NCBI GenBank assembly: GCA_017503375.1
Contig: JAFVTF010000067.1
Location: forward strand, 4,042 to 68,041
DNA: 64,000 nucleotides
Source of the DNA: Lentisphaeria bacterium
GTDB lineage: Bacteria > Verrucomicrobiota > Lentisphaeria > Victivallales > UBA1829
Direction of reading: 5' to 3'
A program made the translations under genes and the position numbers. Shown here one piece after another: positions 1,487 to 56,876 of the stretch. Under the pieces are notes generated by a model, which was given only the letters and a program-made list of their open reading frames with translations, did no database searches and was not told the origin of the DNA. How positions within the stretch are numbered: position 1 is the first letter of the stretch; each line of letters opens with the position of its first letter.

Positions 1487-1530
1487 TGCTGTAATTTCAA
1501 AGAGTTATCCGGGAAAGGGGTCAATTTTTT

Positions 1531-2712: not shown

Positions 2713-2719
2713 GTTTTTT

Positions 2720-3985
2720 ATGGCTTACGATATCGAATGGCTGAATTCAACCGGTTTTTTTACGATTAAACTCGGTTTGGAGCGGATGGAAGAGCTGCTG
2801 GAACGGATGGGGCGGCCTCAGGATTCTTTGCGTTTTGTTCATGTAGCGGGAAGTAATGGGAAAGGGTCGGTCTGTTCTTTGACAGAAACAGCGTTGCGGA
2901 AAATGGGGTATAAAACCGGATTTTACAGTTCTCCGCATTTGATCAAGCTCACAGAACGTTTCCGGGTCAATGGAACGCCTGCCGGGGATGAATGTTTTAT
3001 CCGCAGTGCCGAATCCGTCAGAAAACATGTGGAAGCGATGAGAAAAAACAACAACTCGCCTTCTTATTTTGAGATAACGACTGCCATTGCATTGGAAATT
3101 TTCCGTTCAGAGAATGTGGATTTTGTGATATGGGAAACCGGACTTGGCGGCAGATTGGACGCCACGAATGTGGTTATTCCGGAACTGTCCGTCATAACGG
3201 GGATTTCTCTGGAACATACAGCTTATCTTGGAACAACTTTGAGTGCAGTTGCCGGAGAGAAAGCCGGAATTATCAAACCGGGCGTTCCGGTGATTTGCGG
3301 GCCGATGCCGGAAGAAGCCCGTTCTGTTATAGCTCAAAAAGCCGCTGACTTGAATGCTCCTTTTGTACAGGTTCCTGCTTATACCGGAGCATATCAAATC
3401 AACCGGGAACAGTTTTGTCAGAAGATCACTGTGGATGGTCAGCAGTTTTTGCTGAGCCTGCCGGGTGCGTATCAGCGCAATAATGCTTCCACAGCGTTTT
3501 ACGGTTTGAAATATCTTGCCTCAAAATATGATTTTGATTTTTCAACAGCACTTTCCGGTTTCGGTGAAACCCGCTGGAGTGCCAGATTTCAGTATATTCC
3601 AGAGAAAAATCTGTTGATAGACGGTGCGCATAATCCGGAGGGAATGCAGGCTTTGGCATCAGCTTTGCAGGATTATTTCCCCGGAGAACGCTTTCATTTT
3701 CTTGCCGGATGTTTTGCGGATAAAAATGCGGAAGAGGTCGTGGCTGCCTTTGCACCGCTTGCTGAAGATGTTTCATTTATCGCTTTCGACGGTTCCGGCA
3801 GAGAGATTTGCTCTCCGGCCCAGTTGGGCGGTTTACTGGAAAAATATGCTCCCGGAATTTCCTGGCGTGAGGCAGATTTGGCAGAATCTTTGCAGAAACT
3901 CACGGCTGAATCTGGAATAACAGTCCTTTGCGGTTCTCTTCACATGTGCGGAGAAGCTTTGGAATTGCTCGGCTTGCCGGGATAA
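2720..3985 (+). CDS. folC: Folylpolyglutamate synthase / dihydrofolate synthase
   Basis: Mur-ligase P-loop VAGSNGKGS, an IDGAHNPEG motif, 421 aa. Confidence 0.85.
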   Translation: MAYDIEWLNSTGFFTIKLGLERMEELLERMGRPQDSLRFVHVAGSNGKGSVCSLTETALRKMGYKTGFYSSPHLIKLTERFRVNGTPAGDECFIRSAESVRKHVEAMRKNNNSPSYFEITTAIALEIFRSENVDFVIWETGLGGRLDATNVVIPELSVITGISLEHTAYLGTTLSAVAGEKAGIIKPGVPVICGPMPEEARSVIAQKAADLNAPFVQVPAYTGAYQINREQFCQKITVDGQQFLLSLPGAYQRNNASTAFYGLKYLASKYDFDFSTALSGFGETRWSARFQYIPEKNLLIDGAHNPEGMQALASALQDYFPGERFHFLAGCFADKNAEEVVAAFAPLAEDVSFIAFDGSGREICSPAQLGGLLEKYAPGISWREADLAESLQKLTAESGITVLCGSLHMCGEALELLGLPG

Positions 3986-5144: not shown

Positions 5145-6047
5145 ATGACAATTACAGCCGCAATACTTGTTTTTATTTCCGTGTTCATGCACGCTGCATG
5201 GAATTTGATGTCCAAAACCACCCAGCCATCCACGGCATTTTATCTGATTATGAACTTTGTCGGAGGGATCATCTGGCTGCCGTTTTTTATCATGAGTGCA
5301 AACTCCTTCTGGGGACTGCCTCCGCTGTTTTATTGGCTTTTCGCAGCGACTTGCGTGTTTGAAGTCCTTTACATGTATGGATTGGCACATGGATACAAGC
5401 ATGGAGATATCTCTCTGATTTATCCGCTCGTGCGAACTCTTCCGGTATTGATGCTTGCGGTAATCACTCTTGTTGCCGGAATCGGTAAACCGTTCGGAGC
5501 CATTACAATGTTCGGTATGATCGTGATCGCATGCGGCTGCCTGATCATGCCATTTCAATCATTCCGGAATATTTCTTTCAAAAATCTGAATGGAATCGCT
5601 CTGGTCTTTGTATGTCTCGGTGCAATCGGAACGACCGGGTATACTTTGTGTGACAGTGAGGCGTTGAAACTTGTCGCTCCCGATGGGAATGTTTCAGCCG
5701 TCTGTACACTGGGTTATCTGTTTCTGATGCAGACCGGTTTGACTCTCGGAGAAGTTCCGCTGGTTGTTTTTGACAAAAAAGAACACGAAGCAATGAAAAA
5801 CATCTGGGGAAAGAAAATTATTTATCCGGTTCTTGCCGGGGTAGTCAGCTCTATGGCATATGCCTTGATTCTGATTGCTATGCAGTATGTCACCAATGTC
5901 AGTTACATTCAGGCATTCCGTCAGCTCAGTCTGCCGATCGGCTTTGTTGCCGGAGTGATCTTCCTGCATGAAAAAAGTTCTGCGACCAAAGTTGTCGGTC
6001 TTTCCCTGATTCTGATCGGGTTGATCGTTGTGGCTTTTACAAAATAG
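5145..6047 (+). CDS. EamA/DMT-superfamily multi-pass membrane transporter
   Basis: 300-aa, highly hydrophobic protein with about 10 helical segments in two halves. AGGAAG RBS before ATG 5145. Confidence 0.6.
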   Translation: MTITAAILVFISVFMHAAWNLMSKTTQPSTAFYLIMNFVGGIIWLPFFIMSANSFWGLPPLFYWLFAATCVFEVLYMYGLAHGYKHGDISLIYPLVRTLPVLMLAVITLVAGIGKPFGAITMFGMIVIACGCLIMPFQSFRNISFKNLNGIALVFVCLGAIGTTGYTLCDSEALKLVAPDGNVSAVCTLGYLFLMQTGLTLGEVPLVVFDKKEHEAMKNIWGKKIIYPVLAGVVSSMAYALILIAMQYVTNVSYIQAFRQLSLPIGFVAGVIFLHEKSSATKVVGLSLILIGLIVVAFTK

Positions 6048-6357: not shown

Positions 6358-9297
6358 TTACTTCTGAACCCGTTCCAGAGAGAACTGATCAACATAAACT
6401 TTGTTCGGATTCACATTTTTCTTATGGAAACCTCCCAGATAGAAAAATGCATCCTGACTCAGTTTCACAGGACCAAGCCGGAACAGTTTATAATCCTTTC
6501 CGGAATAATCTTTTATTTTAAGTTTTTTCGTATAAATAACCTTTTTTGTAAACTGATCGTAAAATCCAACGCTGTTTGTCAAATCCGGGTCAACGGCATC
6601 TGTTCTGATTCTCAGATTGACATAGTATTCCGCTTTTTCGATCGGTCCGAGTTTGCACCACATGCTCCAGCCTTTATTGCCGTCAGTGACAACACTCTTT
6701 CCATCCAGTGCTGCCGGATCATTGCAGAATGATTTCAGCATGAATTTTGATTCCGGATAGACGATTTCCGGCATACTGATTCTGCCGAACTGCTTCAATC
6801 CATTCCGGTATCCGAGAGTGAAGAACAGCGGAGACCATGCAGCTGTCGGTTCTTTTGCAGGCAGCGTTCGGAAAAAGTTCGCAGTCATTCCTGTTTTCAT
6901 CTGATTGAATGGTAATTGTTTCAACGGAATCGCCATCATCCATTCCCATGTATTGCCGGAAAGATTGTTGATAAAACGCGGCGTAAGTTTTCCTTTTTCG
7001 CGTTCTTCTTTTCCGTCCTTCATGAAGAATTTCAACTGCTCGATTTTTCCTGCAGGGGAGATCGCTATGTGCCATAATGGTCTTGCAGCATATTCCGAAA
7101 AGAATAACTCTACACAATCGCTCCAGAAATCCCGGTTGGAAACGATCACCCCGCCGGGATTGTTTTCTGTGTATTTCAGGTAAAGATACTGTTTATCTGC
7201 TGCCGCAAGCATGGAGATATTGCGGGCATGTGCTTTTCCATCTTTGTTCTGAAGCCAAAGACCGGTGGAGTTTGCTTTTGACCAGTTGACTTTTTCCGGA
7301 TTACCTCCGGCATTCGAGACCATGGCGGGAATCAATTTTTTCTGTTTGGTCTTGCCCATATTTGCCATTTTCTGTTCGTACTGGAGTTTGCCTTTTCTTG
7401 CTTCTTCCCATACACCTTTGATAAATCTTTGAAGATTCGCTTTTTCAAAAGGTGTTTTAACCAGAACAGATGCTTCTTTCAGAAGGGCTTCTATTTGATT
7501 GAAACGTTCGTTGCTGCCGATTTTCCAGTTGATATCTTCTGTATGGAGTCCGGTTCCCCAATAGGGATTATGCGCGCCCCGCGGACCATAAGGTTTGGAA
7601 ATATCGTCTGTCCATTCTTTCGGGTAATTATTTTTATTCCACCATGCGTCTTCGCTGATCCTGTAAATCTTTTTCATCGCAGGAGCAGCTTTTCCGTAAC
7701 TTGCATTGAACCAGTCATCAATGATCTTATCCGGATCGAGAGAGGGATCAAAAGCCAGCTTTGCCGCAACGTATGCTTCCAGAAGGCTGTATTGCAGTTC
7801 GACTTCCGTAAACCATCCTTTCACTCCGCTGGAGAACAGTTTTTTCATCATTTCCCCGTTTTTCCAAGGATAAAGCCCCGGGAAACTGTGATATTGAAAA
7901 TGTACTTTTGAATCCCAGTGCGGTGAAAAGATATAAGTCCAGAGCATTACAGGACGCTTTTTTGCCTCGTTTTTGATCCATTTGCTGTATTCCAGTTCCT
8001 GAGCTGCTCTGATGCCGGGATGCCACCAGGAATAGGTTGTCAGACACAAGGTGACAGAAATATTTTCCGGAAGTTTGAGTTTATCCGGATACGGAAGTGT
8101 CTGGATATATGCCAGCGTTGAAATTCCTGTTCCTTTTTGAAGAGCAGAGGCTTTTTTGGCGATCTCTGAAATAAAATGGAACTTCTGATGGGATGTTTTA
8201 TAATCTCCTTTCAAATCCGGGAACAATGCTTTGCAATTTTCACATTTACAGAACAGATTGCTGTCTGCCGGTTCCACCGGATAGAAGAACGGTTTGCCCG
8301 GAATACGCGGTGTCAGACATTTTTCCGGAGAAACTTTTCCGTTTGCGTTCCACCATCCGCCCCGGACATTTTTTCCCTGAGCATAACGGGCTGCAACTTC
8401 AGCAAAATGTTTATGGGTATCCGGATGAGTGAAACAAGGCTGAGGTGGAAGATCAGTATCGGCAGGGTATTTGCTTCTGACAGCTTTATCAGAATAACTG
8501 TTGGCACCTTTATATCCGGCAGCGAACAATTCCGGACGTTTCTGTTTGAATTCTCCTGCCAGATTCGGATCTTTTGCTTTATCCCAATACTGGAAATAAA
8601 GAGTATAATAGTTGTGAGCAGTTTTTCCGTAAATTTCACACTGTCTCCAGCGGAAAGACCACAAACGGCGTTCACGTTCAGAGAATGGAAGAACCGTATA
8701 GTTTCTGTCATCCGTATAAATTTCCCGGAATCCATCCAGCGGCGGCGTGAATTTTTTATCAAGAGGTGATACTGTCAGTGTTTTTTTCCGGGGATAAGCA
8801 ATGGAATCTTCCCAGGGTCCGGTAAAGAGAACACCGCAGCGGTTTTCCAGAAAATCGTAAACAGCGAATAAGGTTCCATAGGTTTGAAAATGAGGAATCG
8901 GGAATGTATTGTAATTCTGATAATTAACTTTTCCAAAATCCGGAGTATCATTTCCCGTCAGAAAAATCTGATCTCCTTCGGTTTTGATTTGGTAGGTTTC
9001 TCCGGAAAATTTTTCCGGTGTCAATCCGATCTCCCGGGCTGCTTTTGTATTCCCGATATAAATTTTCACTTTTTCCGGAGCTGATTCTGTCCGGATCGGC
9101 AGTTCTGCTCCGGAGATCAATTTTACAAAGTTCCTGAGTTCCAAGGCTCCGAGTTGGGCGGCCTTTGTCGGTTTTTTTCCGAGAATGATTGCCGCATTTG
9201 CGTTACCGTCTTTGACAAGAACGAGTTCTGCTGCCGAAAGGGAGAACATTCCCGGTAACAGAAACAACATAAATAAGATAACAGGTTTGTAAAACAT
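6358..9297 (-). CDS. Secreted DUF4838-type putative glycoside hydrolase with a CBM9-like C-terminal region
   Basis: Signal peptide. The N-terminus AELVLVKDGNANAAIILGKKPTKAAQLGALELRNFVKLISGAELPI is the typical DUF4838 opening. A DFWSDCVELFFS motif lies in the C-terminal third. GAAAGGA RBS. Confidence 0.6.
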   Translation of the reverse strand: MFYKPVILFMLFLLPGMFSLSAAELVLVKDGNANAAIILGKKPTKAAQLGALELRNFVKLISGAELPIRTESAPEKVKIYIGNTKAAREIGLTPEKFSGETYQIKTEGDQIFLTGNDTPDFGKVNYQNYNTFPIPHFQTYGTLFAVYDFLENRCGVLFTGPWEDSIAYPRKKTLTVSPLDKKFTPPLDGFREIYTDDRNYTVLPFSERERRLWSFRWRQCEIYGKTAHNYYTLYFQYWDKAKDPNLAGEFKQKRPELFAAGYKGANSYSDKAVRSKYPADTDLPPQPCFTHPDTHKHFAEVAARYAQGKNVRGGWWNANGKVSPEKCLTPRIPGKPFFYPVEPADSNLFCKCENCKALFPDLKGDYKTSHQKFHFISEIAKKASALQKGTGISTLAYIQTLPYPDKLKLPENISVTLCLTTYSWWHPGIRAAQELEYSKWIKNEAKKRPVMLWTYIFSPHWDSKVHFQYHSFPGLYPWKNGEMMKKLFSSGVKGWFTEVELQYSLLEAYVAAKLAFDPSLDPDKIIDDWFNASYGKAAPAMKKIYRISEDAWWNKNNYPKEWTDDISKPYGPRGAHNPYWGTGLHTEDINWKIGSNERFNQIEALLKEASVLVKTPFEKANLQRFIKGVWEEARKGKLQYEQKMANMGKTKQKKLIPAMVSNAGGNPEKVNWSKANSTGLWLQNKDGKAHARNISMLAAADKQYLYLKYTENNPGGVIVSNRDFWSDCVELFFSEYAARPLWHIAISPAGKIEQLKFFMKDGKEEREKGKLTPRFINNLSGNTWEWMMAIPLKQLPFNQMKTGMTANFFRTLPAKEPTAAWSPLFFTLGYRNGLKQFGRISMPEIVYPESKFMLKSFCNDPAALDGKSVVTDGNKGWSMWCKLGPIEKAEYYVNLRIRTDAVDPDLTNSVGFYDQFTKKVIYTKKLKIKDYSGKDYKLFRLGPVKLSQDAFFYLGGFHKKNVNPNKVYVDQFSLERVQK

Positions 9298-9314
9298 AAA
9301 AAAATCCTTTCCGG

Positions 9315-10106
9315 TTAATTGGCTGATTTGACTTTTAGCGTTTCAGAAGGTGTTTTTCCTTCCTTATAGTAAATATAATTCCAATTGTTATATGCCTTTT
9401 CACTGCAGAGTTCCATGTGGATCTTTCCCGGTGAAGTTGTTGCTGTATGACCATCGGCATACATGATATTGGCTTTTTCATTATGTCTTGTATGAATCTG
9501 GGATTTATCGGATTCTGTTGTCAGTTCAATGTAGAAATATTGTCCTCCGTACCATGTTCCGACAGAACCCATATGCAGCGAATCAGCTCCGATCAGCTCA
9601 CTGGATGGGCTTTTTGATTTCCCAATACGGTAAAGACGATCATAATAAGCCCCGTTTTTGATTTCAAAAGCCCGTGAAGGATCAGTTGTAAGAAATACAT
9701 CAAGGGGGAAGATTCCGTACGTTGATTTCATCCGGCTTGTAAGCATGGGATTGGCAACAGCCTGCGGCTGAATTGTCGGACATGACAGAACCTTTGTATC
9801 TGTAAGATATCCTCCCTGATAAGCCTTGAAAAGCCACCCCGGATTGCTTGAAGCATCTGTCGCGTTGTAAACCCGGTATGCATACAGACCGTTGTATTCA
9901 TCGGAATACATTCCGACTCCCAGCATGACTTGTTTCTGATTATTGAGACATGACGAGGTTTGAGCCGCTTTTCTTGCATTGTTCAGTGCGGGCAACAGCA
10001 TTCCCGCCAGAATCGCAATGATGGCGATCACAACCAGAAGTTCGATCAGGGTGAATGGAACAATGACTGAATGGCATTTCCGGCATGAAAAACTTTTGTT
10101 AATCAT
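9315..10106 (-). CDS. Prepilin-type N-terminal domain protein of the H-X9-DG / DUF1559 family
   Basis: [33 protein letters not shown]-terminal helix. C-terminal [12 protein letters not shown] (H-X9-DG). AAGGAG RBS. Position -1 is Pro, not Gly. Confidence 0.85.
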
Positions 10107-10123
10107 CTTTTTTCTCCTTGAAT

Positions 10124-11935
10124 TTATATTATAGTTGGATTTTCCGGTAAATCAAATGAAAAATCTTCATTCCACAATTTTATATTGTTCTTTTTACAGC
10201 TGACAAGCAGTTCATTTACAGCCCGGATCAATGCTCCGGAGGCTGTCGTGAACCATGGAAGTTTTTTCAGTTCATACACTTCAAAACATTCATAAAAACA
10301 CCCCGTAGAATTTTCTGCGGCATCTTTCAGATATTTCAGAGCCTTCCGGAAATCCCCTCTGCGGATTTCTGCCGTTGCAATCACTCCGGCATACCAGGAT
10401 GAAATGTTTTTTCCGCCGGAATATTGTCCTGCAAACTCTGCAATATTCGCTTCTGTTTCTTCCAGAGCTTTCTGCTGAAGCGGATCTTTCGGGCAGACTG
10501 TCTGATAGGGAAAAATTCCATGATACATTGCAATTGAATTCTGTTTGCATCCGGGATAGGGAACATATCGTTCATTTTCAGCTGGAAGTGCATGGGTCAG
10601 CTCTTCAGAAAGTTTCTTCCATTTTTGCCGGAGTTCATGATCACAATCAAGATATTCCGCTATTTCCGCCGCAGCCCGGAAAACTGCGATCCCGCCGCAA
10701 GTTGTTGAGTACCCCCTTTCAATGAATTCCCCAAAACGTTCCATATCGGTACATTTCCCGATGTATGCTCCGGTAACGGAATCGTAATAAACAGCACTGC
10801 GCCGGTAATATTCTGCGCACCCATGAATCAGCGGATATAACACTTCCGAAAGCAGTTGTCTGTCCTGAAGAAATTTCCAGCATTCCCATGCACTGACTGC
10901 AACATTCGCCATGTGAACATATCGGTCCATCCAGAAGCCCGGCGGGGAACCTTCCGAACCGTCTTCCCGTGTTTCCCACGGATAACGTGCCGCAAGATTT
11001 TCTTTCGGACATATATGAGTATAGCATGTTCTTTGAATCGCATTTTCCAATACGGAAAAACGGAAACGGTCGATTTTTACCGCTTCTTTGAAATGACCGC
11101 TTGTCAGAAATGCTCCGTGTACATAAAATTCATCATAGGCGAAAAATCTGCCTTCCCAGTGTGATGGAAATAAGCCGGTCGGAACAGACCAGGGAGTTGA
11201 GGAAATTTTCAAATGGTATTGTGCCGTCCGGTACATTTTCATAAGAGCTTCATCGGGAATAGAAATCCAGCTTTCATTCCAGTATTTTTCCCATTCAGAA
11301 CAATGCGTTTTATACAGAGTATCAAAGTTTTCTCCTTTTGCTTCATCATCAAAACAGAGCAAAATATCAACGTTTGAATTTTTTGTTGTAATTGCCAATT
11401 CATGATCGGAAGAACAGAATTCTGCATCCGGAGCAATCATTTTTATAAAGCCGGAATGATTCCCGGAATTATATTCCAGCCGATCTGTTCCCTGTTGGAC
11501 AATCTGAATGGAACGTTCTTTCGGAAGATTGTAGCTGAATTTGTATCCCGGAACATCTCCCTCTGAGATGATGTTTTTCCGGATCGCAATGATTTCCCGT
11601 TCTGCATGACAGAAAATTTTTGTATGGATTTCAATCCCAGAGCTGTATTTGACGTTACATTCACAATATGCGTGATCAAGATCGATTGATTGGGAAAATT
11701 CCAGAACATCTCCGCTTTTTTCCGGGGATTGCACAAAATTCCCGAACCGGATCAGATTCATACTCTGATCATTATAACGTTTCCCGGAACGGACGATGAC
11801 CGGCTGCATCCCGCAATATTTCTGCTGCTTCATTTCTCCTTCATAATCGACCATGAAGGATAGTTTCCCGTTTCCCATCGCCAGGGGAACATAATGCCGT
11901 TTCCTTTGACTTTTATCACTGTATGATATTTTCAT
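10124..11935 (-). CDS. GH65-like (alpha/alpha)6 glycoside hydrolase/phosphorylase, no signal peptide
   Basis: [19 protein letters not shown] and [16 protein letters not shown] resemble the GH65 catalytic-domain motifs (FWD.E.F and PW.S...G.E). The start is moved to ATG 11935, which has a GGAG 6 nt upstream. The ORF-track start at 11947 lacks an RBS. Confidence 0.5.
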
Positions 11936-12056
11936 GGTGTACTCCATATTTATTCCGCTGTTAATAATTTATATTGAAAATAACTTGAAATCAAGAAGTT
12001 ATTGTGCTATTTTATACATGAACTGGTCATAATCAATACATAAAACAGGAATAATA

Positions 12057-12890
12057 ATGAGAGAAAAAGAAGATTATAAAGTAAATTTTTTGCGGTATCA
12101 GGATATGAGTGAACTGCCGATTTACCCTTTTTGTGCTGAAATTTCATTGCGTTATATTCCGCGAAAAGTCAACAGAAATCAATATCCGTTTTTATTGATT
12201 TGCGGAATTCAGGAAGGAAGCGTGCGTTTCGTTTTCGATGACCGGAAAATAACGCTGAACGCAAATGATGTGCTGCTGATTCCACCTTATACTCCATATT
12301 ATTTTGAATCATATTCGACAGGCGGACATTACAAAAAACTTGCCTTGGAATTACAGGGAAAACTGCTGAATGAATATCTTGATTGTTTGAAGATAAAACA
12401 GGTTTGCTGCCATAAAAAAGAATTATGGGAAGAATTTATTTCCGCATTTGAAAAAATCAATGAATTCAATGCAGCAGGAAATAAAGGGGAAATCCCGGAG
12501 ATATCTGCTGTTATTATCAGACTGCTGCACCATTTCTCTCTTCGGAATCAAACTGAAAACGATAATGGAGATTCTCTTTTGCTGATGGCTTGCAGATGGA
12601 TCGATCAGAACCTGGATAAACCGATAGATCTCCGTTCATTGGAACAACATCTGAACGTCAGCCGTTCAACTCTGGGACGGATTTTCCGGAAAGGAAAAAC
12701 AGTCAGTCCGAAAGAATATTGGATCCGCCGCAGATTGGAAAAATCAGAATACCTTTTGAATCATTCGGAATATTCCATCAAAGAAATCTCTTTCCAGCTG
12801 GGATATTCCTCACAATTCCATTTTTCCAATGAATTCAGACGGTTCTATGGGCTTTCCCCGCTGGCGTACCGGAAACTCGGACAAAACTGA
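12057..12890 (+). CDS. AraC-family transcriptional regulator (cupin-like sensor plus HTH)
   Basis: C-terminal SIKEISFQLGYSSQFHFSNEFRRFYGLSPLAYRK AraC HTH signature. Divergent from the GH65-like operon. Confidence 0.85.
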   Translation: MREKEDYKVNFLRYQDMSELPIYPFCAEISLRYIPRKVNRNQYPFLLICGIQEGSVRFVFDDRKITLNANDVLLIPPYTPYYFESYSTGGHYKKLALELQGKLLNEYLDCLKIKQVCCHKKELWEEFISAFEKINEFNAAGNKGEIPEISAVIIRLLHHFSLRNQTENDNGDSLLLMACRWIDQNLDKPIDLRSLEQHLNVSRSTLGRIFRKGKTVSPKEYWIRRRLEKSEYLLNHSEYSIKEISFQLGYSSQFHFSNEFRRFYGLSPLAYRKLGQN

Positions 12891-12911: not shown

Positions 12912-14756
12912 TCAGAGCTTTTCAATCGCAATATGAACAGTTAAACCATCTTTTCCTTCAGCGGCAAAGGTGTCATAATGTCCATTCCGGTTCCGGGCAG
13001 GGCGTTTCAGATCGCTGATCGTTCCACCTGTGACTGTATAACGGCAGACATATCCGCCAAATTCAATTTCCAGAACCTTTTCTTTTTGCGTGACTTTTGT
13101 ATTTTCTTCCCCGTTGAACCGGAAGACCGGGAGCAGACAACGTACTTTATTTTTTCCGGAAATCTTGATTTGAAGTCCGTTTTTATCCAGCACATAACTG
13201 CTTGCAACAGTTTGACCGCCGGGGAATTTACATTCCACTTCCGCTTTAGCTGTTTCTCCTGATGCAGAATGGCTTTTCACGGTATGGATAACTTCCTGTT
13301 CCTCTGCATCAATCCATTTTCCGTCAGCAAATATTCCCGGAACAATAGAAAGCATTGCCGGATTTTCTATGTCGACAGTGTAGCTTGATTTTGCAGGGCA
13401 GGGGGTGCTGAGACAAAGTTCAGATGGCGCACCTTTTTTGAGAAGGCGTCCCAAACCGCTGCAATCATAATGATAGTTTGCGTTATAATCATATTGAGCA
13501 GTATATTCCCCTGCATGTAAAAACAGCTGATGGAATTTATCGGAGGTTTTCCAGCTTCTTCCCATGTTATCATTGATTTCTCCGGCTGGGATTGAGTCAT
13601 CGCAAATCCGGTATGCAACATAAAGAAAAGAGGCTGCCGTAATCATGTACTTATCGAAATAAGCATAGTCTTCGCAACCGTACTTTGTATCCAGCGGAAA
13701 ACGGTTTTTGATATGAAGGATCGGAGTTTTTTTCAACCAGCCGGAGATCTTTTCCACGGCGCGGATTGCTCTGGCACGGAATTCTCCGGCAGTTTTCATA
13801 TCGCCTTTTGCGGCAAAGCGTCTCGCATAATATTCCATCATAATGGCTAAATGGGATTCATTATGCAGGAATTGATTGCTCCGTCCGCCGAAGGGCATTT
13901 CACCCGTAACGGATTGCAGGTCAAGTGTCAGCAATGCACTGGAATCCAATGCATCCTGCCAGACTTGCTTATATTTTCCCTGATATCCTTCATGAAGAAG
14001 GATCGCGAAAAGTCCGCGGGTGACAAAATCATAAACTGCAGGTTCCCCCGGATCGCGGTACATCTTGTTTTCATCCAGATGCCGCAGCTGAGAATATGCC
14101 TGCAAATCAATAAAATCCGCATAAGAATCAGCCAATCCCATTTTCTGCCGCATAAATTCGCTGACCATTGTGAATGCCGCCCAGTTGTAAACGATATGTT
14201 CTGTGTCTCTTGCATAAACATTATAACATGTATAGGGATTGATCGTTTTCAAAAGATTTTTCCATTCCTGCATCTTTTCAGCGGGAATCACTTTGCTGTT
14301 TTCCAATTCTTCCAGACAGAAAATGATTTCTTTCACGGAAAAATCATTTGCAGCTTTGACTTTCGGGATCTGCTGACAGCAGAAGTCCATCATCTGAATG
14401 AAAATATCTTTCAGATCCTGTCGTTTTCCATGAGCCATGAGGATTCCGATATTGGCAGTCAATCGGGGAAAACCATGTTCAGTCAACCCTTCTTTTTTGA
14501 CCTGATTGAAATAACGGTTGATGTGTTCCATGCTGTATGCAGAAAGCGTGGTTTCCATCAGATCAAGATAGTATGTCTTTTTCATGATCTTTTCCTTTGT
14601 CTTGATTTTTGCTGATTGTTTTATCTGATCGGAATCTTTGATTGTCTGTGTTTGCAGACCGCATCCGGTAAAGGAAAACAATACAGTGATTCCTGTAAAT
14701 ACCGGAAGGATGAACGCCGTTGATTGGATGAACATTTTCTTTTTGTCCATTTCCAT
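12912..14756 (-). CDS. Hypothetical lipoprotein-like protein, function unknown (possibly a helical-toroid glycan enzyme)
   Basis: N-terminal hydrophobic segment ending in FTGC (lipobox-like). It has its own promoter (14783-14811). ATG 14750 has better AGGAG spacing than 14756. No family recognised. Confidence 0.5.
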   Translation of the reverse strand: MEMDKKKMFIQSTAFILPVFTGITVLFSFTGCGLQTQTIKDSDQIKQSAKIKTKEKIMKKTYYLDLMETTLSAYSMEHINRYFNQVKKEGLTEHGFPRLTANIGILMAHGKRQDLKDIFIQMMDFCCQQIPKVKAANDFSVKEIIFCLEELENSKVIPAEKMQEWKNLLKTINPYTCYNVYARDTEHIVYNWAAFTMVSEFMRQKMGLADSYADFIDLQAYSQLRHLDENKMYRDPGEPAVYDFVTRGLFAILLHEGYQGKYKQVWQDALDSSALLTLDLQSVTGEMPFGGRSNQFLHNESHLAIMMEYYARRFAAKGDMKTAGEFRARAIRAVEKISGWLKKTPILHIKNRFPLDTKYGCEDYAYFDKYMITAASFLYVAYRICDDSIPAGEINDNMGRSWKTSDKFHQLFLHAGEYTAQYDYNANYHYDCSGLGRLLKKGAPSELCLSTPCPAKSSYTVDIENPAMLSIVPGIFADGKWIDAEEQEVIHTVKSHSASGETAKAEVECKFPGGQTVASSYVLDKNGLQIKISGKNKVRCLLPVFRFNGEENTKVTQKEKVLEIEFGGYVCRYTVTGGTISDLKRPARNRNGHYDTFAAEGKDGLTVHIAIEKL

Positions 14757-14782
14757 TTACTCCTGTCTTTTTACTGAAAAGT

Positions 14783-14811
14783 AATATACCCCCTTGAAAA
14801 ATAAATGTCAA
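14783..14811 (-). promoter_or_regulatory. Sigma70-type promoter for the 12912-14756 gene
   Basis: Minus strand reads TTGACA-17 nt-TATATT, directly after the upstream terminator. Confidence 0.55.
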
Positions 14812-14814
14812 GAA

Positions 14815-14851
14815 TAAAAAAGGGATATCTCAGATTTTTTCTCAGATATCC
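14815..14851 (-). terminator. Rho-independent terminator ending the DUF4838 operon (locus 2)
   Basis: Minus strand: ggatatctgaga-aaaaa-tctgagatatcc stem (one mismatch) followed by cTTTTTT. Confidence 0.6.
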
Positions 14852-14908
14852 TATGCTTTTTGAGCTGCAGTTCCGGATCACGGAAAACTGCAGAAGTTTG
14901 AGCGGTAT

Positions 14909-17782
14909 TTACAGGAATTTCAGTGTAACATCAGAAATTGCCGCCGCCTCTGTTCCGCGCATTTTGAAGAAGATCATCAGGAATTTATTCCCTTTCAGAG
15001 CATCCCCCTTTACACGGAATTTGACCGGTGCAAAACCTTTGTTGGAAACCGGACGTGCCCAGAGAACATTCTGCCCCGCAACCCAGTTATTCTTCTTCCA
15101 TTCGTAGATGATTACACCGATTTTACCGGATTTACTTTCCGCCGGACGCGCCGCATTCAAGGTCACTTCCATGACGTTTCCGGGTTTTTTGTTCCAGTTG
15201 AAGAGATAATGTCCGATGGTATATGCGTTCGGATTCCGGTTGACCATTGCTGTTTTTCCGAACAGTTTTTCATGGGTCGATTTTTCACGGGGAACGATCT
15301 TCGCAGAAGAAATTTTCTTTTCCCGTGTTTGTGATTTCTGCGCGGCAGCATCGCCAATCCGGATCAGACGGATATCTGCAATATACAGAGGTTCATTGAC
15401 TTTGAACCGGGATGGACGGATAATGATATTCGCTCCGGTATGCCGGGGAAGAACTGTCGCAACCTGTGTGAAAGTCTGCCATTCATTTGCCGGAATGCGG
15501 ATCTGCCGCAGATCTTCCCATGCGTTGTTGACTCCGTTGGTGCAGACCCAGAGGGAAAGATCCATGATCGCCTGCTGTGATTTTGACAGAACCTTGAGCG
15601 ATACCGCCCAGATTCCGGGATCAAGTTTCTCCGTGATCGTGAATGAAACGATATGACTCAACATGATATCATCCGGATTCGGTACTCCGTTGGGATGCGC
15701 CGGAAGGAGCTTGAGAGTCTTTTCGCCCTTGTAAAGCACTTCACTGGTAATTTCATAAGGAACTGAAGTTTTGATCTTCATTACACTTACCGGTTTTTCC
15801 AGTTTCGGGTTGGAGAAATAATTTTTGGCTTTATCTCCCTGAGTAACAAGAGAAATCATTTCTTTGACCGCCTTCGGCATATCCGGCAGAGCGGAAAGAG
15901 CTTTCAATCCCTCCTGAACTTCTTTGTGTTCCATAAAACGCAGAGATTTGAGAAGTCCGGCAGAAAGTAGTACTGAGGCATCCGGCTCATATAATTTCCG
16001 GGTGATATAATACTGTTTTGCTTTTTCATTAGAAAAATCCGCATTGGTGAAATAAGCAGCGGCACGTTTATGTTGAGCAATCAGACGCGGAAACTCCTTT
16101 TTCAGGAAATGAAAGTATGCCAGTGTATCTTTAACATTTTTGAATTCTCCGTTATCTGCTGCCCGGTATGCCATTCCTTGGAACGTTGCAATACAATCCA
16201 GATTTTCCATTTGACGGACAAGCAGGGCAGCACGGGCTTTTTCTCCGGGTGTTTTTGCCAATGTTTCCACTTTGAGCGCAAGGTCAAGCAGTTCTTTGGT
16301 GAAGCCCGGTTTCAGCGCAAACATGTGGTTTTCATTCGGATACATGTAAATATAGTTCCGTGCGCGGAAGATGGGTGTCTTTTTCATTTCTTCGGAAAGC
16401 CAGTAATTTTCGCACTTCTGATAGAGTTCTTTCAGGTACGGAGCGGCTGCTTTTCCGGCATAGCGGTTATACCACTCTTCCAGAAGTTTTTCCGGATCTG
16501 CATTGATATCTTTCAGAAGATTTGCAACAAGATAGGTCTTCGGACCGTCAAGAGCATCTGCCATACGGGAGTTTTCTCCGAAATAGGCTCTGCCGCCGTT
16601 GGCATAAAGATATTTCAGCAACGCAGCATGATTCTTGAAGTTCACGCGGGGGACCAGAAAGTTTCTGCCCCAGCAGTAATCCCAGATCCCGGTTTCTTTG
16701 ACCATTTTCCCCCACTCATTGATCACTCCCCAGTGACGTTCCTTTACTTTCGGATCCAATGCTCCCAGAACAGAATCCAGAGTCATCATGGGAACCACAT
16801 TTTTGTGAACCGGGAAATCCGGAGTCATAATGGTTCCGGTATAAGCGAGAATACCGATCCGGAGATCAGGATATTCTTTACAAACTGCTTCTGCAACACG
16901 GTTTACAAATGTGTAATAACTGTTCGCATGATTCTGTCTGTCATTGACAAATATTCCCTTGCGAAGCCCTTTATTCATGTTCTTGCAGCTTTCACATTCA
17001 CAGAATCCGCTATTGTCGTTGACGCCCAATGTGATGGATTGCGCCGGTCGTTTTTTCAAGATCTCAAGCGTATTTTTTACAGCTTCTTTTGCGGTCTCCG
17101 GATTGGAATAACAGGGTTGCCAGTTATTATAAATATTTGCAGGCGGTTTCACCAGTTTTTTTCCGCGGATGACCGGCATAATTGCAGCGGGCCAGCCTTT
17201 CCGGTATTTATGCGGCGGAAAAGAATAGACAGGAATCCCATGCGTGTATTGGAATTTTCCATTATCATAAAAACCAAGTTCCACAAGGTGATTCGGGAGC
17301 AGCCAGGTTGAACGCCGCAGAGAAAAACCTTCTTTGGATTTCATCGGTTCTGTCGGAACCTGAACATTTTTCATCGGTTCATACTGGAACATGCAATTTT
17401 CGATTCCGAGAAAACGGGTGTCTGCTCCCTTTTCCAGAACAGCATTCAACGCCTGAAATATGGAGGTGTCCGTTGCGGTGATCTTCATCACTTTTTCTGA
17501 CGGAAATTCGATTTCCCAATTGAAATGAGTTCCCAGTTTCGGATTCTTTTCCAGCACGACCTGAATGGTGTACGGAAGATTTTTATTTGTCTTCGGTAAT
17601 TCCGTTCCTGTGACTTTTTTCAGATAAGAGTTAAAAAGATCAATATGTTCAAGACTTTTTTCATCCGTATCTTTTGCCAGTTGAATTTGAGCGGTCGGTT
17701 TTGCATTTTTGACCAGATGGAATTCTGCAGCGGTCAATCCGCTGACAGCCAGCAATCCCATCAATAAAATTTTATGTTTCAT
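14909..17782 (-). CDS. Secreted DUF4838-type putative glycoside hydrolase (paralog of 6358-9297)
   Basis: Signal peptide. AEFHLVKNAKPTAQIQLAKDTDEKSLEHIDLFNSYLKKVTGTELPK opening. AGGAGG RBS. Confidence 0.6.
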   Translation of the reverse strand: MKHKILLMGLLAVSGLTAAEFHLVKNAKPTAQIQLAKDTDEKSLEHIDLFNSYLKKVTGTELPKTNKNLPYTIQVVLEKNPKLGTHFNWEIEFPSEKVMKITATDTSIFQALNAVLEKGADTRFLGIENCMFQYEPMKNVQVPTEPMKSKEGFSLRRSTWLLPNHLVELGFYDNGKFQYTHGIPVYSFPPHKYRKGWPAAIMPVIRGKKLVKPPANIYNNWQPCYSNPETAKEAVKNTLEILKKRPAQSITLGVNDNSGFCECESCKNMNKGLRKGIFVNDRQNHANSYYTFVNRVAEAVCKEYPDLRIGILAYTGTIMTPDFPVHKNVVPMMTLDSVLGALDPKVKERHWGVINEWGKMVKETGIWDYCWGRNFLVPRVNFKNHAALLKYLYANGGRAYFGENSRMADALDGPKTYLVANLLKDINADPEKLLEEWYNRYAGKAAAPYLKELYQKCENYWLSEEMKKTPIFRARNYIYMYPNENHMFALKPGFTKELLDLALKVETLAKTPGEKARAALLVRQMENLDCIATFQGMAYRAADNGEFKNVKDTLAYFHFLKKEFPRLIAQHKRAAAYFTNADFSNEKAKQYYITRKLYEPDASVLLSAGLLKSLRFMEHKEVQEGLKALSALPDMPKAVKEMISLVTQGDKAKNYFSNPKLEKPVSVMKIKTSVPYEITSEVLYKGEKTLKLLPAHPNGVPNPDDIMLSHIVSFTITEKLDPGIWAVSLKVLSKSQQAIMDLSLWVCTNGVNNAWEDLRQIRIPANEWQTFTQVATVLPRHTGANIIIRPSRFKVNEPLYIADIRLIRIGDAAAQKSQTREKKISSAKIVPREKSTHEKLFGKTAMVNRNPNAYTIGHYLFNWNKKPGNVMEVTLNAARPAESKSGKIGVIIYEWKKNNWVAGQNVLWARPVSNKGFAPVKFRVKGDALKGNKFLMIFFKMRGTEAAAISDVTLKFL

Positions 17783-17803
17783 CCTTGATTCCTCCTTTGT
17801 ATA

Positions 17804-18568: not shown

Positions 18569-18720
18569 AATGTTTCCTTTCTTGTTTGTTATTATAAAAA
18601 CAGTATACGACACTGCATCAAAGATTCCGGAAATCTTTGAAATCGTTTCTCCGGTGATATTTTGAAAAACCCCGGTTATACTTTTTTTCTTTCAAAACGG
18701 AACGTTCAACGCTGTCAAAA

Positions 18721-48539: not shown

Positions 48540-48735
48540 GAGCCGGCGCACGCAGAATATCAAAACCATTTTAATATCCGCTGCGACCCTCTCCCTTCCA
48601 GACTCGCAGAATCCCTTCTGCATCACTGTCGGTTCCGGAGTTTCACCGGATCTGTCCTGTTCAGGACTCGCGGACTTTACCGCCGGTCGGGATTTGCCAT
48701 CAGGCTCACCCAGCCCCGAAGATCGCTCTCTTTTC
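48540..48735 (-). promoter_or_regulatory. FMN riboswitch (RFN element) leader of ribBA
   Basis: Minus strand reads cttcggggctgggtga...aatcccgaccggcggtaaagtccgcgag...gatccggtgaaactccggaaccgacagt...agtctggaagggagag. P1 is gcgatcttc / gagagggtcgc. Downstream, ctgcgtgcgcc can pair with ggcgcagcag, which overlaps the AAGGAGG RBS. Confidence 0.9.
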
Positions 48736-56857: not shown

Positions 56858-56876
56858 TTTTTTCCTTTCTGTTATT

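What the first reader, a model, noticed from the sequence alone, without database searches (positions are those of the whole stretch)
6358..12890. Locus 1: divergent AraC regulator with a GH65-like enzyme, H-X9-DG prepilin-like and a secreted DUF4838/CBM9-like enzyme
This is the fourth instance. The gaps are 17 nt on each side of the pilin-like gene. Here the sensor is a divergently transcribed AraC-type regulator instead of a GntR fusion.

The cassette pairs a cytoplasmic (alpha/alpha)6 enzyme with a secreted enzyme, which implies import of an oligosaccharide intermediate. No importer is encoded.
Basis: partly seen in the sequence, partly recalled or inferred. Interest (0 to 1): 0.6.

Follow-up and report, generated by a model that had tools for sequence, protein, structure and literature searches.

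The report
Pilin-like gene inside sugar-degrading operon
An uncultured gut-type Victivallales bacterium keeps a pilus-subunit-like gene next to a secreted sugar-cleaving enzyme, in an operon with its own sugar-sensing switch but no sugar importer; this layout recurs across these bacteria and may mark how they export enzymes or capture glycans.

Summary
On the minus strand lies a three-gene operon: a GH65-like enzyme without a signal peptide (10124-11935), a 263-aa prepilin-like H-X9-DG protein (9315-10106), and a 979-aa secreted DUF4838 enzyme with a CBM9-like domain (6358-9297). Both gaps are 17 nt and carry ribosome-binding sites. An AraC regulator (12057-12890) is transcribed divergently. 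It is one of four such cassettes, holding five pilin-like genes, in the window.

New points:
- The pilin-like gene and the DUF4838 gene are a conserved adjacent pair in at least three other Lentisphaeria lineages (about 50% and 53-57% identity). The other cassette genes vary.
- The 28-residue N-terminal helix is identical or nearly so in the window's five paralogues despite 10-18 synonymous codon changes. The heads share about 30% identity.
- The residue before the expected cleavage site is almost never glycine (Pro here).
- The confident head model matches no solved structure and gave no periplasmic-binding-protein hit.
- No sugar importer is encoded in this cassette or its orthologues.

Best reading: a cassette-specific pseudopilin joins a shared type-II-secretion or type-IV-filament machine and serves the cognate secreted enzyme. 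Glycan capture or uptake is the main rival. I found one brief literature precedent, in Verrucomicrobiota. I rate it a new variant of a known kind, of moderate to high interest.

The parts
12057..12890 (+). AraC/XylS-family regulator, 277 aa: N-terminal cupin-type AraC ligand-binding domain and C-terminal double HTH. It is transcribed divergently from the operon.
   Evidence: PF12833 at 1.2e-20, PF00165 at 3.3e-14, PF02311 at 7.6e-10. Orthologues of 47-52% identity lie divergently next to GH65-like orthologues in L007, L010 and L012.
11936..12056 (.). 121-nt divergent control region. It holds promoter-like hexamers on both strands and an 8-bp inverted repeat, AATAACTT (11979-11986) and AAGTTATT (11996-12003). 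Other strains of the same species carry a 169-nt MITE-like insertion between the positions that correspond to 11962 and 11963.
   Evidence: Sequence; promoter scan; alignment with L001, L004 and L006. That this region acts as a promoter or operator is inferred.
10124..11935 (-). GH65-like enzyme, 603 aa (607 aa if translation starts at 11947), no signal peptide. It has an N-terminal beta-sandwich and an (alpha/alpha)6 catalytic domain but lacks the C-terminal domain of the roughly 750-aa homologues. Candidate catalytic residues are E399 (motif GKCTDMER) and E552.
   Evidence: NCBIfam kojibiose hydrolase at 1.6e-17, far below the cut-off. PDB 7fe3 at 2e-7 with the single sequence. Family profile A3: 7fe3 at 3.8e-33, 4ktr at 2.3e-18, GH95 4ufc at 1.5e-15. 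Invariant residues. N-termini.
9315..10106 (-). Prepilin-like H-X9-DG / DUF1559-type protein, 263 aa. It has a 17-aa basic leader, then [28 protein letters not shown] (F+1, E+5, Pro at -1), then a head of about 215 aa with C53, C109-P110 and H208-x9-D218-G219-H220.
   Evidence: Pfam and NCBIfam. 84-sequence alignment. AlphaFold model with pLDDT 91.8: helix 20-70 followed by a beta-sheet head. No PDB match with E below 0.5. Position -1 statistics. Codon analysis.
6358..9297 (-). Secreted DUF4838 enzyme, 979 aa. In order: signal peptide; N-terminal alpha/beta domain; TIM barrel with helical bundle (the fold shared by GH20, GH67, GH84 and GH115, and the catalytic domain of GH163 and GH185); a CBM9-like domain at about 650-840; a C-terminal beta-sandwich at about 845-979. 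It also has an invariant 4-Cys cluster: C288, C350, C352, C355.
   Evidence: PF16126 at 7.4e-22. AlphaFold model with pLDDT 93.4. Foldseek: GH115 at 1e-17 to 1e-15, GH67 at 2e-10, GH84/GH20 at 1e-8 to 1e-7, CBM9 7nwo at 3e-8 and 1i82 at 6.5e-7. Invariant residues. Family function from PMC10570127.

Best explanation
This is an AraC-controlled, three-gene glycan-utilisation operon of an uncultured Victivallales (Lentisphaeria) bacterium. A signal-peptide-bearing DUF4838 glycosidase with a CBM9-like module would attack a polymer outside the cytoplasm. A GH65-like hydrolase without a signal peptide would finish an imported oligosaccharide. AraC would sense a cytoplasmic product.

The pilin-like gene encodes a cassette-specific pseudopilin. 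Its strictly conserved N-terminal helix lets it enter one shared type-II-secretion or type-IV-filament machine. Its divergent head is dedicated to the co-encoded secreted enzyme. I commit to this role: the pseudopilin is induced together with the enzyme and couples that enzyme to the machine, for passage across the outer membrane or display at the cell surface.

Shown: gene content, operon layout, family relationships, conservation of the pair, and selection on the helix. Inferred: co-regulation by AraC, assembly into a filament, and the export or display role.
For: - Operon anatomy with RBS-bearing 17-nt gaps.
- The pilin-like gene and the DUF4838 gene immediately downstream form a conserved pair. 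L012 has pilin250 (50% identity) followed by DUF4838 at 57%. L017 has pilin228 (49%) followed by DUF4838 at 53%. P0124 and P0242 share the same longest-contig length (10540), so they probably lie on one contig. By contrast, the second pilin-like gene of the same L012 operon is only 31% identical, with much of the match in the N-terminal helix. The GH65-like gene and the roughly 520-aa gene come and go.
- The helix is under extreme purifying selection. The 28 N-terminal codons of the five paralogues in the window differ at 10-18 codons synonymously and at 0-2 non-synonymously. The heads share about 30% identity. This fits a common assembly platform.
- The head is found only behind a pilin-type N-terminus. 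Of 939 representatives, in nearly all of the 150 listed the match starts at about residue 35-60.
- Most genes that follow a pilin-like gene in the window and in L012 encode large proteins with a signal-peptide-like N-terminus.
- The regulator / pilin-like / CAZyme layout recurs in L014, L015, L017, L018 and L101. In an independent metagenome sample, 9 of 47 upstream neighbours carry a LacI/GntR-type sugar-binding domain, and CBM9, GH2, GH42 and AXE1 proteins lie downstream.
- Precedent: in Verruconatronum alginivorum, one of 67 pulG-like pseudopilin paralogues sits in an alginate-utilisation gene cluster. A pseudopilin was also among the proteins over-expressed on alginate. The authors suggest T2SS export of the lyases (PMC13274419).
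Against: - No expression, localisation or interaction data exist for this organism.
- No T2SS or type IV pilus assembly gene, and no prepilin peptidase, lies in the 64-kb window.
- Position -1 is Pro here and Gly in only 2 of 84 relatives. To my knowledge canonical prepilin peptidases need Gly there, so processing and assembly are unproven.
- The protein scores far below the GspG cut-off: 26 bits against 88.85.
- Some pilin-like genes precede proteins without a signal peptide, for example GH28 at 56877-58214 and the oxidoreductases in L019.
- Classical T2SS does not, to my knowledge, use substrate-specific pseudopilins.
- Pair conservation fits a head that binds the glycan just as well as a head that binds the enzyme.
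Confidence: 0.4

Rival explanations
1. Glycan-capture or uptake fibre. The head of each cassette-specific pilin-like protein binds the cassette's target glycan. Fibres extend and retract through a secretin and bring large glycans to the surface or into the periplasm, as competence pseudopili do for DNA. In this reading the pilin-like gene is the PVC counterpart of SusD-type binding proteins. An unlinked inner-membrane transporter then feeds the cytoplasmic GH65-like enzyme.
For: - The cassettes contain cytoplasmic enzymes but no transporter or TonB-dependent receptor. Only two polytopic membrane proteins lie in the 64 kb that hold the four cassettes.
- Pair conservation and head divergence fit glycan specificity.
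[quoted passage not shown] Marine Akkermansiaceae take up labelled fucoidan (PMC12418764 and PMC13174399).
- Pili arising from crateriform structures have been proposed for polysaccharide uptake in Planctomycetes (PMC12673574).
- L100 carries a pilin-like gene about 2 kb from a cluster resembling Akkermansia Amuc_1099-1102 together with a secretin: secretin, PilM and Amuc_1102, plus only a faint Amuc_1100 hit.
Against: - No lectin or CBM fold was detected in the head.
- The secreted enzymes carry their own CBMs.
- Retraction machinery was not seen.
- In L100 the pilin-like gene and the cluster lie on opposite strands, so the proximity may be chance.
- The MUL2 pilin Amuc_1102 belongs to a different family.
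Confidence: 0.3
2. Membrane-anchored periplasmic binding protein. The protein is not cleaved or assembled. It stays anchored in the inner membrane by its N-terminal helix and acts as a solute-binding protein that hands oligosaccharides to an unlinked transporter. This is the reading implied by the Pfam name 'SBP_bac_10'.
For: [quoted passage not shown]
- Position -1 is unconstrained and is Pro here, which argues against canonical prepilin-peptidase cleavage.
- The cassettes lack any other binding protein.
Against: - The confident model (pLDDT 91.8) is a long helix with a single beta-sheet head.
- Foldseek gives no periplasmic-binding-protein hit and nothing with E below 0.5.
- F+1, T+2, L+3 and E+5 are invariant. 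The whole helix is conserved under saturated synonymous change. That is far more constraint than a membrane anchor needs.
Confidence: 0.12
3. Passenger. Pilin-like paralogues are simply very numerous in these genomes and lie in CAZyme operons by chance or by duplication history, with no cassette-specific role.
For: - The family is very large: more than 7990 hits, which is the scoring cap.
- Density in the window is one per 13 kb, so co-occurrence within 10 kb is expected by chance.
- Most Lentisphaeria loci that carry a GH65-like homologue have no pilin-like gene within 10 kb.
Against: - Orthologous pilin-like + DUF4838 pairs stay adjacent, on the same strand, at about 50% protein identity in at least three other lineages, while neighbouring genes change.
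- Spacing is tight and RBS-linked.
- The gene recurs directly after the regulator.
- Selection on the sequence is strong.
Confidence: 0.08

Closest known systems
PulG-like pseudopilin paralogues in polysaccharide-utilisation clusters of Verrucomicrobiota (Verruconatronum alginivorum alginate cluster, PMC13274419)
   Same: It is a pilin or pseudopilin-like gene embedded among polysaccharide-degrading genes in a PVC bacterium. The genome holds many paralogues (67). A pseudopilin was over-expressed on the substrate. The authors suggest a link to T2SS export.
   Different: - A different phylum and a different substrate.
- That paper does not report a conserved pilin-enzyme pair, the non-Gly -1 residue, the invariant helix, or the regulator-first layout.
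Type II secretion pseudopilins and type IV pilins (GspG/PulG, PilA, ComGC)
   Same: It shares a short basic leader, F+1, E+5, a hydrophobic alpha-1 helix of about 20 residues (PF07963, TIGR02532), and a predicted helix-plus-beta-sheet architecture.
   Different: - It has no Gly at -1.
- Its head of about 215 aa is nearly twice the size of GspG's and has no structural match.
- It scores far below every equivalog cut-off.
- It is encoded in catabolic operons rather than in a gsp or pil cluster.
- Dozens of paralogues carry an identical helix.
DUF1559 / H-X9-DG paralogous family of Planctomycetes, Verrucomicrobia and Lentisphaerae (PF07596, TIGR04294)
   Same: It has the same N-terminal architecture and the same C-terminal H-x9-DG motif. 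55 of 84 relatives hit PF07596. R. baltica has 74 copies (PMC2754498).
   Different: - This protein falls just below both curated cut-offs (21.9 against 23.3 bits; 15.7 against 19 bits).
- The family's function is unknown.
- In the broad environmental sample the cassette context is weaker than in the Victivallales loci.
Akkermansia mucin utilisation loci (MUL; type IV-like pilus Amuc_1099-1102)
   Same: It is a PVC bacterium in which pilus-type proteins are needed for a complex glycan to accumulate inside the cell. A cluster resembling Amuc_1099-1102 with a secretin occurs in a contig that also carries a pilin-like paralogue (L100).
   Different: MUL2 is a single housekeeping-like locus with a different pilin family (Amuc_1102). 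It does not provide one paralogue per catabolic operon.
Bacteroidota polysaccharide utilisation loci (SusC/SusD-marked PULs)
   Same: Many substrate-specific operons each combine a sensor or regulator, secreted CAZymes and one recurring non-enzymatic marker gene.
   Different: The marker here is a pilin-like protein, not a TonB-dependent transporter with its lipoprotein. No outer-membrane or inner-membrane transporter is encoded in the cassette.
GH163 (BT1035) and GH185 (Sp_0475) DUF4838 glycosidases; GH65 kojibiose hydrolase (7fe3)
   Same: - The Pfam DUF4838 domain passes its threshold.
- The top structural neighbour is GH115 4C90/4C91. The GH185 authors found the same neighbour for Sp_0475.
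- The GH65-like profile aligns over the beta-sandwich and the catalytic domain of 7fe3.
   Different: - Subfamily and activity are unknown. The closest characterised relatives are very distant.
- The GH65-like protein fails the Pfam and NCBIfam cut-offs and lacks the C-terminal domain.

Membership tests
Type IV pilin / pseudopilin (class III signal peptide) | Short basic leader, F/M at +1, E at +5, and a hydrophobic N-terminal helix of about 20 residues (PF07963 / TIGR02532) | tested here: met
   The leader is [17 protein letters not shown], followed by F18 and E22. PF07963 scores 21.3 bits against a cut-off of 21.2. TIGR02532 scores 21.7 against 16.3. These residues are invariant in 84 relatives.
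Type IV pilin / pseudopilin (class III signal peptide) | Glycine at position -1, needed by canonical prepilin peptidases (established knowledge, from memory) | tested here: not met
   Position -1 is Pro17 here. Across 84 relatives it is Gly in 2, with S 15, N 9, R 7, C 7 and K 7. In the five window paralogues it is S, S, S, C and P.
Type IV pilin / pseudopilin (class III signal peptide) | Head with an alpha/beta-roll fold like solved pilins | tested here: inconclusive
   The AlphaFold model (pLDDT 91.8) shows helix 20-70 followed by a multi-strand beta-sheet. Foldseek finds no PDB match with E below 0.5, and the pilin CofA ranks only 49th at E 7.9.
Type IV pilin / pseudopilin (class III signal peptide) | Assembly machinery in the same genome: prepilin peptidase, ATPase, platform protein, secretin | not testable with these tools
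   None lies in the 64-kb window, and the rest of the genome is not available. A related contig, L100, carries secretin, PilM and Amuc_1102 genes.
GspG major pseudopilin (TIGR01710) | Score above the equivalog cut-off | tested here: not met
   26.2 bits against a cut-off of 88.85. Only residues 18-74 match.
DUF1559 / H-X9-DG (PF07596, TIGR04294) | HMM score above the curated cut-offs | tested here: inconclusive
   PF07596 scores 21.9 against 23.3 bits, with only profile positions 2-53 matched. TIGR04294 scores 15.7 against 19. 55 of 84 relatives hit PF07596 at E of 1e-3 or better.
DUF1559 / H-X9-DG (PF07596, TIGR04294) | C-terminal H-x9-D-G motif behind a prepilin-type N-terminus | tested here: met
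   [13 protein letters not shown] gives H208, D218, G219 and H220. H208 and G219 are invariant. D218 and H220 are conserved in at least 90% of relatives.
Periplasmic solute-binding protein (the reading of the Pfam name SBP_bac_10) | Two-lobed periplasmic-binding-protein fold | tested here: not met
   The model is a single helix-plus-sheet domain. No PBP appears among the 50 Foldseek matches shown, and none of the 88 matches has E of 0.001 or better.
GH65 | Pfam PF03632 or an NCBIfam model above its cut-off | tested here: not met
   PF03632 scores 18.1 against 27 bits. PF22124 (GH95_cat) scores 22.8 against 27. NCBIfam kojibiose hydrolase scores 63 against 800 bits.
GH65 | Homology across the beta-sandwich and the (alpha/alpha)6 catalytic domain | tested here: met
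   Profile A3 against PDB gives 7fe3 at 3.8e-33 (profile positions 7-477 aligned to chain residues 28-513), 4ktr at 2.3e-18, and 1h54, 3wiq and 9sd6 at about 1e-10. GH95 4ufc scores 1.5e-15, so the family lies between GH65 and GH95.
GH65 | Catalytic general-acid Glu, plus a general-base Glu in the hydrolase members | tested here: inconclusive
   Invariant E399 (GKCTDMER) aligns within one residue of the D-E-W motif of 7fe3. Invariant E552 aligns with the Glu of ISECKGG...PYF. Which residues are catalytic in 7fe3 is recalled from memory and was not checked.
GH163 / GH185 (DUF4838 glycosidases) | PF16126 domain above its cut-off, and the GH20/GH115-type fold | tested here: met
   PF16126 scores 78.3 against 26.6 bits. 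Foldseek gives GH115 at 1e-17 to 1e-15 and GH67, GH84 and GH20 at 1e-10 to 1e-7. The GH185 paper reports the same top neighbour.
GH163 / GH185 (DUF4838 glycosidases) | Sequence similarity to BT1035 or Sp_0475 sufficient for CAZy family assignment, and conserved catalytic residues | not testable with these tools
   The reference sequences are not on hand, and no DUF4838 structure is in PDB.
CBM9 | PF06452 hit | tested here: not met
   The C-terminal 336 residues give no hit even at E up to 10. Distant DUF4838 homologues (P0310, P0312, P0321 and others) do carry PF06452.
CBM9 | CBM9 fold | tested here: met
   Foldseek gives 7nwo at E 3e-8 with TM(target) 0.65, 1i82 at 6.5e-7 with 0.66, and 4jpq at 8.8e-9 with 0.67. 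This rests on a predicted structure.
AraC/XylS regulators | C-terminal double HTH and N-terminal AraC-type ligand-binding cupin | tested here: met
   PF12833 scores 74 bits, PF00165 53 bits and PF02311 39 bits, all above their cut-offs.
Bacteroidota-type PUL | Adjacent SusC-like TonB-dependent transporter and SusD-like lipoprotein | tested here: not met
   Pfam scans of the ORFs longer than 180 aa that I judged likely genes found no such domain.

The most novel reading that the evidence does not exclude
The pilin-like paralogues may be the defining component of a PVC-type polysaccharide utilisation system. One shared secretin and filament machine would accept dozens of interchangeable subunits, each induced by its own substrate. 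Each subunit's head would recognise the operon's glycan or enzyme. The fibre would then act as a programmable glycan-capture and uptake device, or as an enzyme-display device. In function this would replace SusC/SusD, and it would explain why these cassettes encode no transporter. The non-Gly -1 residue would imply a prepilin peptidase with a new specificity.
Probability: 0.3. Interest if true: 0.85.

Novelty: new variant of a known kind. Interest (0 to 1): 0.6.

Why it matters
PVC bacteria (Lentisphaerota, Verrucomicrobiota, Planctomycetota, Kiritimatiellota) are important degraders of complex glycans in guts, rumens and oceans. They lack the SusC/SusD marker that makes Bacteroidota loci easy to find, and how they export enzymes and take up large glycans is still unclear.

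A pilin-like gene kept as a conserved partner of a secreted enzyme would help in two ways:
- It could serve as a practical marker for finding substrate-specific loci in PVC genomes.
- It would give a concrete, testable handle on the pilus-dependent glycan foraging proposed for Akkermansia and Planctomycetes.

It would also give a function to one of the largest paralogous families of unknown function in these phyla (DUF1559 / H-X9-DG).

If instead the gene is only a T2SS accessory or a passenger, the locus is an ordinary, poorly characterised CAZyme operon.

Tried and rejected
- **Exact-sequence look-up of the 607-aa ORF.** It found nothing. The public gene call starts four codons later (P0001).
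- **Sequence search of PDB with the DUF4838 protein.** No relative was found. I needed a predicted structure and Foldseek instead.
- **Pfam scan of the DUF4838 C-terminal region for CBM9.** No hit.
- **Foldseek of the full pilin-like model.** Nothing significant. The long helix may hamper the search.
- **Solute-binding-protein reading of DUF1559.** Rejected on fold.
- **Gene conversion as the cause of the identical N-termini.** Rejected, because 10-18 of 28 codons differ synonymously.
- **EamA (5145-6047) as the missing importer.** Rejected as a cassette member. It is convergent, matches a phosphonate-associated DMT model below its cut-off, and is absent from the orthologous cassettes.
- **Transporter density near GH65-like genes by phylum (hydrophobicity heuristic).** Not discriminating.
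- **Co-occurrence of pilin-like and GH65-like genes within 10 kb.** Found in about 22 of 80 loci, mostly labelled Lentisphaeria or Victivallales. Given the density of pilin-like genes, this is not evidence in itself.
- **Literature searches.** Searches for H-X9-DG, for Victivallis or Victivallales with prepilin or pilin, and for Lentisphaerae with pilin, glycoside hydrolase and GntR found nothing relevant.
- **Rfam and tRNA scans.** Nothing lies in the locus.
- **Pfam on the partner genes of the orthologous cassettes** (about 520 aa and about 893 aa) **and on the 614-aa gene next door.** No family was found.

Full report
**1. What is there**

The region 6358-12890 contains four genes, as described. 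The minus strand carries three:
- A 603-aa protein at 10124-11935. An in-frame ATG at 11947 would add four residues. The GGAG six bases before 11935 and the public gene call P0001 favour 11935.
- A 263-aa protein at 9315-10106.
- A 979-aa protein at 6358-9297.

The two gaps are each 17 nt and each holds a Shine-Dalgarno-like sequence. No convincing terminator lies inside the block. A 277-aa AraC-family gene (12057-12890) is transcribed divergently across a 121-nt region that has promoter-like hexamers on both strands and an 8-bp inverted repeat. Two equal 17-nt gaps are ordinary operon spacing.

**2. Family assignments**

*Regulator.* It has the AraC ligand-binding cupin and the double HTH, all above Pfam cut-offs.

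*979-aa protein.* It has a signal-peptide-like N-terminus and a DUF4838 domain at 7.4e-22.
- DUF4838 is the catalytic domain of the glycoside hydrolase families GH163 (BT1035, an endo-beta-N-acetylglucosaminidase) and GH185 (Sp_0475, a 6-sulfo-GlcNAcase), which are distantly related to GH20 (PMC10570127).
- An AlphaFold model built on 59 homologues is confident (pLDDT 93.4).
- Foldseek places the N-terminal two thirds with GH115, GH67, GH84 and GH20 enzymes. The GH185 authors found the same top neighbour, GH115 4C90/4C91.
- A separate domain of about 200 residues matches CBM9 structures (7nwo, 1i82, 4jpq; target TM about 0.65). Pfam's CBM9 model does not hit. More distant homologues do carry PF06452.
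- The family has an invariant four-cysteine cluster: C288, C350, C352, C355.

*603-aa protein.* As a single sequence it gives only sub-threshold hits (GH95_cat, GH65m, kojibiose hydrolase).
- A profile of 45 homologues hits the GH65 kojibiose hydrolase 7fe3 at 3.8e-33 across the beta-sandwich and the catalytic domain. Other GH65 enzymes score 1e-18 to 1e-10, and a GH95 enzyme scores 1.5e-15.
- I therefore call it GH65-like. It is a distinct, uncharacterised family in which two invariant glutamates sit where GH65 hydrolases have theirs. Which residues are catalytic in GH65 is recalled from memory.
- The Lentisphaeria clade (600-670 aa) has no signal peptide. Most of the roughly 750-aa homologues listed from Verrucomicrobia, Planctomycetes and Bacteroidota have a hydrophobic N-terminus.

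*263-aa protein.* It has a basic leader and then [28 protein letters not shown]. It also carries the N-terminal part of DUF1559 and the C-terminal H208-x9-D218-G219-H220 motif. Its scores lie at or just below the curated cut-offs, but 55 of 84 relatives hit DUF1559.

**3. Source organism**

Identical proteins occur on metagenome contigs that share the whole neighbourhood (L001-L006). The best species-representative genomes are uncultured Victivallales/Lentisphaeria MAGs from human gut and rumen, at only 54-58% identity. The window therefore comes from an uncultured Victivallales-type bacterium with no close representative in that collection.

**4. The cassette pattern is real**

The window holds four cassettes with five pilin-like genes:
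- GntR-SBP / pilin / GH28 / pilin / 1166-aa LamG protein (60409-52587)
- GntR-PBP / pilin / two pectate-lyase-like proteins (33080-28158)
- GntR-SBP / pilin / DUF4838 / 614-aa protein (20103-12912)
- this one

The same layout of regulator, then pilin-like gene(s), then CAZymes appears around other family members that I looked up without regard to context:
- L014: GntR-PBP, two pilin-like genes, then GH123 and a GH63-like gene.
- L015: GntR, three pilin-like genes, and DUF4838, melibiase and GH2 further on.
- L101: AraC / pilin / beta-helix protein, and GntR / pilin.
- L017 and L018, from a Lentisphaerae MAG.

One paralogue, in L100, stands alone. It lies about 2 kb from a secretin / PilM / Amuc_1102 cluster, with a faint Amuc_1100 hit, that resembles the Akkermansia Amuc_1099-1102 locus.

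In a metagenome sample selected only through the pilin-like protein, 9 of 47 upstream neighbours carry a LacI/GntR-type sugar-binding domain. Downstream neighbours include four CBM9 proteins and GH2, GH42, AXE1 and LamG proteins. In that broad sample, which probably includes other PVC phyla, many contexts are different.

**5. What comparison adds**

*(a) Two conserved modules.*
- AraC orthologues (47-52% identity) always sit divergently next to GH65-like orthologues (L007, L010, L012).
- The pilin-like protein has orthologues of about 50% identity, head included, directly upstream of DUF4838 orthologues of 53-57% in L012 and L017. P0124 and P0242 are probably a further such pair.
- In L012 the same operon holds a second pilin-like gene in front of a different secreted protein. 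It is only 31% identical to ours, with much of the match in the N-terminal helix.
- The GH65-like gene is missing from L017. A conserved cytoplasmic gene of about 520 aa, present in L007, L012 and L017, is missing from the window.
- The stable unit is therefore the pilin-like gene together with DUF4838.

*(b) The helix is under very strong selection.* In the five window paralogues the 28 N-terminal codons differ at 10-18 codons synonymously and at 0-2 non-synonymously. This is purifying selection on the helix, not gene conversion. The heads share about 30% identity.

*(c) The head is specific to pilin-like proteins.* A search of 1.84 billion representatives with the head alone finds 939 relatives. 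Only one cluster scores below 1e-30. In nearly all of the 150 listed hits the match starts at about residue 35-60 of the hit, that is, behind a pilin-type N-terminus.

*(d) Position -1 is not glycine.* It is Pro here and Gly in only 2 of 84 relatives. To my knowledge canonical prepilin peptidases require Gly.

*(e) The head has no known fold match.* The head model is confident (pLDDT 91.8) but has no significant match in PDB, and no periplasmic-binding-protein hit appears. This argues against the 'solute-binding protein' label that DUF1559 carries in Pfam and in the R. baltica literature.

**6. The missing importer**

This cassette and its orthologues encode no transporter. The 64-kb window contains only two polytopic membrane proteins: an EamA/DMT protein at 5145-6047 and a MatE protein. 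The EamA gene is convergent with the operon and is not conserved next to the orthologous cassettes, so I do not count it as a member. An unlinked inner-membrane transporter is still needed to feed the cytoplasmic GH65-like enzyme and the cytoplasmic AraC sensor.

**7. Mechanism**

The invariant helix implies one shared partner: a peptidase, a platform protein or a filament core. The divergent, enzyme-linked head implies cassette specificity.

I favour a cassette-specific pseudopilin that couples the co-induced secreted enzyme to a shared T2SS-like or type-IV-filament machine, for export or surface display (confidence 0.4).

The main rival is a glycan-capturing or uptake fibre (0.3). It fits the missing transporters and the Akkermansia and Planctomycetes precedents. 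Conservation of the pair does not separate these two readings.

An uncleaved membrane-anchored binding protein (0.12) and a passenger gene (0.08) are less likely, for the reasons given with each rival.

**8. Comparison with what is known, and novelty**

The component families are all in databases. The DUF1559 / H-X9-DG family is known as a large paralogous family of unknown function.

In the searchable literature I found one brief precedent. A pulG-like pseudopilin with 67 paralogues lies in an alginate-utilisation cluster of a verrucomicrobium, a pseudopilin was among the proteins over-expressed on alginate, and the authors linked this to T2SS export (PMC13274419). I found nothing for Victivallales.

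The following appear to be undescribed:
- the systematic layout of one or more paralogues per regulated CAZyme operon;
- the conserved pilin-enzyme pair;
- the frozen helix;
- the non-Gly cleavage-site residue.

I rate it a new variant of a known kind, with interest 0.6. All functional statements rest on sequence and predicted structure only.

Noticed in passing
L001 about 8565-8735 (also L002-L006), corresponding to window 11962/11963: Other strains of the same species carry a 169-nt MITE-like insertion with 18-bp terminal inverted repeats (GAGGYAATTTCAAAAGTC). It sits in the AraC / GH65-like control region, about 27 nt upstream of the GH65-like start codon. The window lacks it. It could alter regulation of the operon.
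   Followed up: partly
window 48745-48786 and 466-499: The same inverted-repeat sequence occurs twice in the window as short palindromes of 42 bp and about 34 bp. These may be minimal copies of the element or REP-like hairpins. There are 3 matches, against 0.04 expected by chance.
   Followed up: partly
window 48582-48727 (-): An FMN riboswitch (Rfam RF00050, 84 bits) lies upstream of the ribBA gene at 47293-48510. One of the palindromic elements lies just upstream of it.
   Followed up: no
window 9315-10106 and the four other pilin-like genes (17804-18613, 31071-31793, 56108-56887, 58233-58928): The residue before the conserved FTLIELL is S, S, S, C or P, never Gly. It is Gly in only 2 of 84 relatives. 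This points to an unusual prepilin peptidase specificity or to no cleavage. Two of the leaders are rich in Cys and His (CRKCH; CLC...C).
   Followed up: partly
L100 14-7588 (-) and 10001-10753 (+): On a 767-kb contig a pilin-like paralogue lies about 2 kb from a secretin / PilM / Amuc_1102 cluster, with a faint Amuc_1100 hit. The cluster resembles the Akkermansia Amuc_1099-1102 locus and is a candidate shared machine.
   Followed up: no
window 6358-9297; L122 765-3908; L018 17463-18515: Proteins with a CBM9 or CBM9-like domain recur directly downstream of pilin-like genes. In the metagenome sample this is 4 of 41 downstream neighbours.
   Followed up: partly
window 6358-9297, residues C288, C350, C352, C355: This DUF4838 clade has an invariant four-cysteine cluster (CxCxxC plus one distant Cys), possibly a structural metal site. 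The GH185 paper does not mention it.
   Followed up: no
window 12912-20103 (-): The adjacent cassette is GntR-SBP fusion / pilin-like / a second DUF4838 only 18-22% identical to the first / a 614-aa protein that looks like a lipoprotein and has no Pfam family. It ends 21 nt from the AraC stop codon, in convergent orientation.
   Followed up: partly
L007 9881-11431, L012 9842-11422, L017 11000-12562; L007 12258-14942, L012 12180-14858: Two further families without any Pfam hit are conserved partners in the orthologous cassettes. One is a protein of about 520 aa with no obvious signal peptide, judged by eye (57-67% identity). The other is a protein of about 893 aa that appears secreted (70% identity).
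   Followed up: partly
L031 (record title 'Blautia faecis'), 703-3321: A contig binned as Blautia faecis carries a GH65-like gene followed by a pilin-like gene of the Victivallales type. This is probably a binning contaminant.
   Followed up: no
window 1-64000: The 64 kb that hold four CAZyme cassettes and a GH94 phosphorylase (39121-41514) contain only two predicted polytopic membrane proteins (EamA and MatE). Pfam detected no ABC, MFS, PTS or TonB-dependent sugar transporter.
   Followed up: partly
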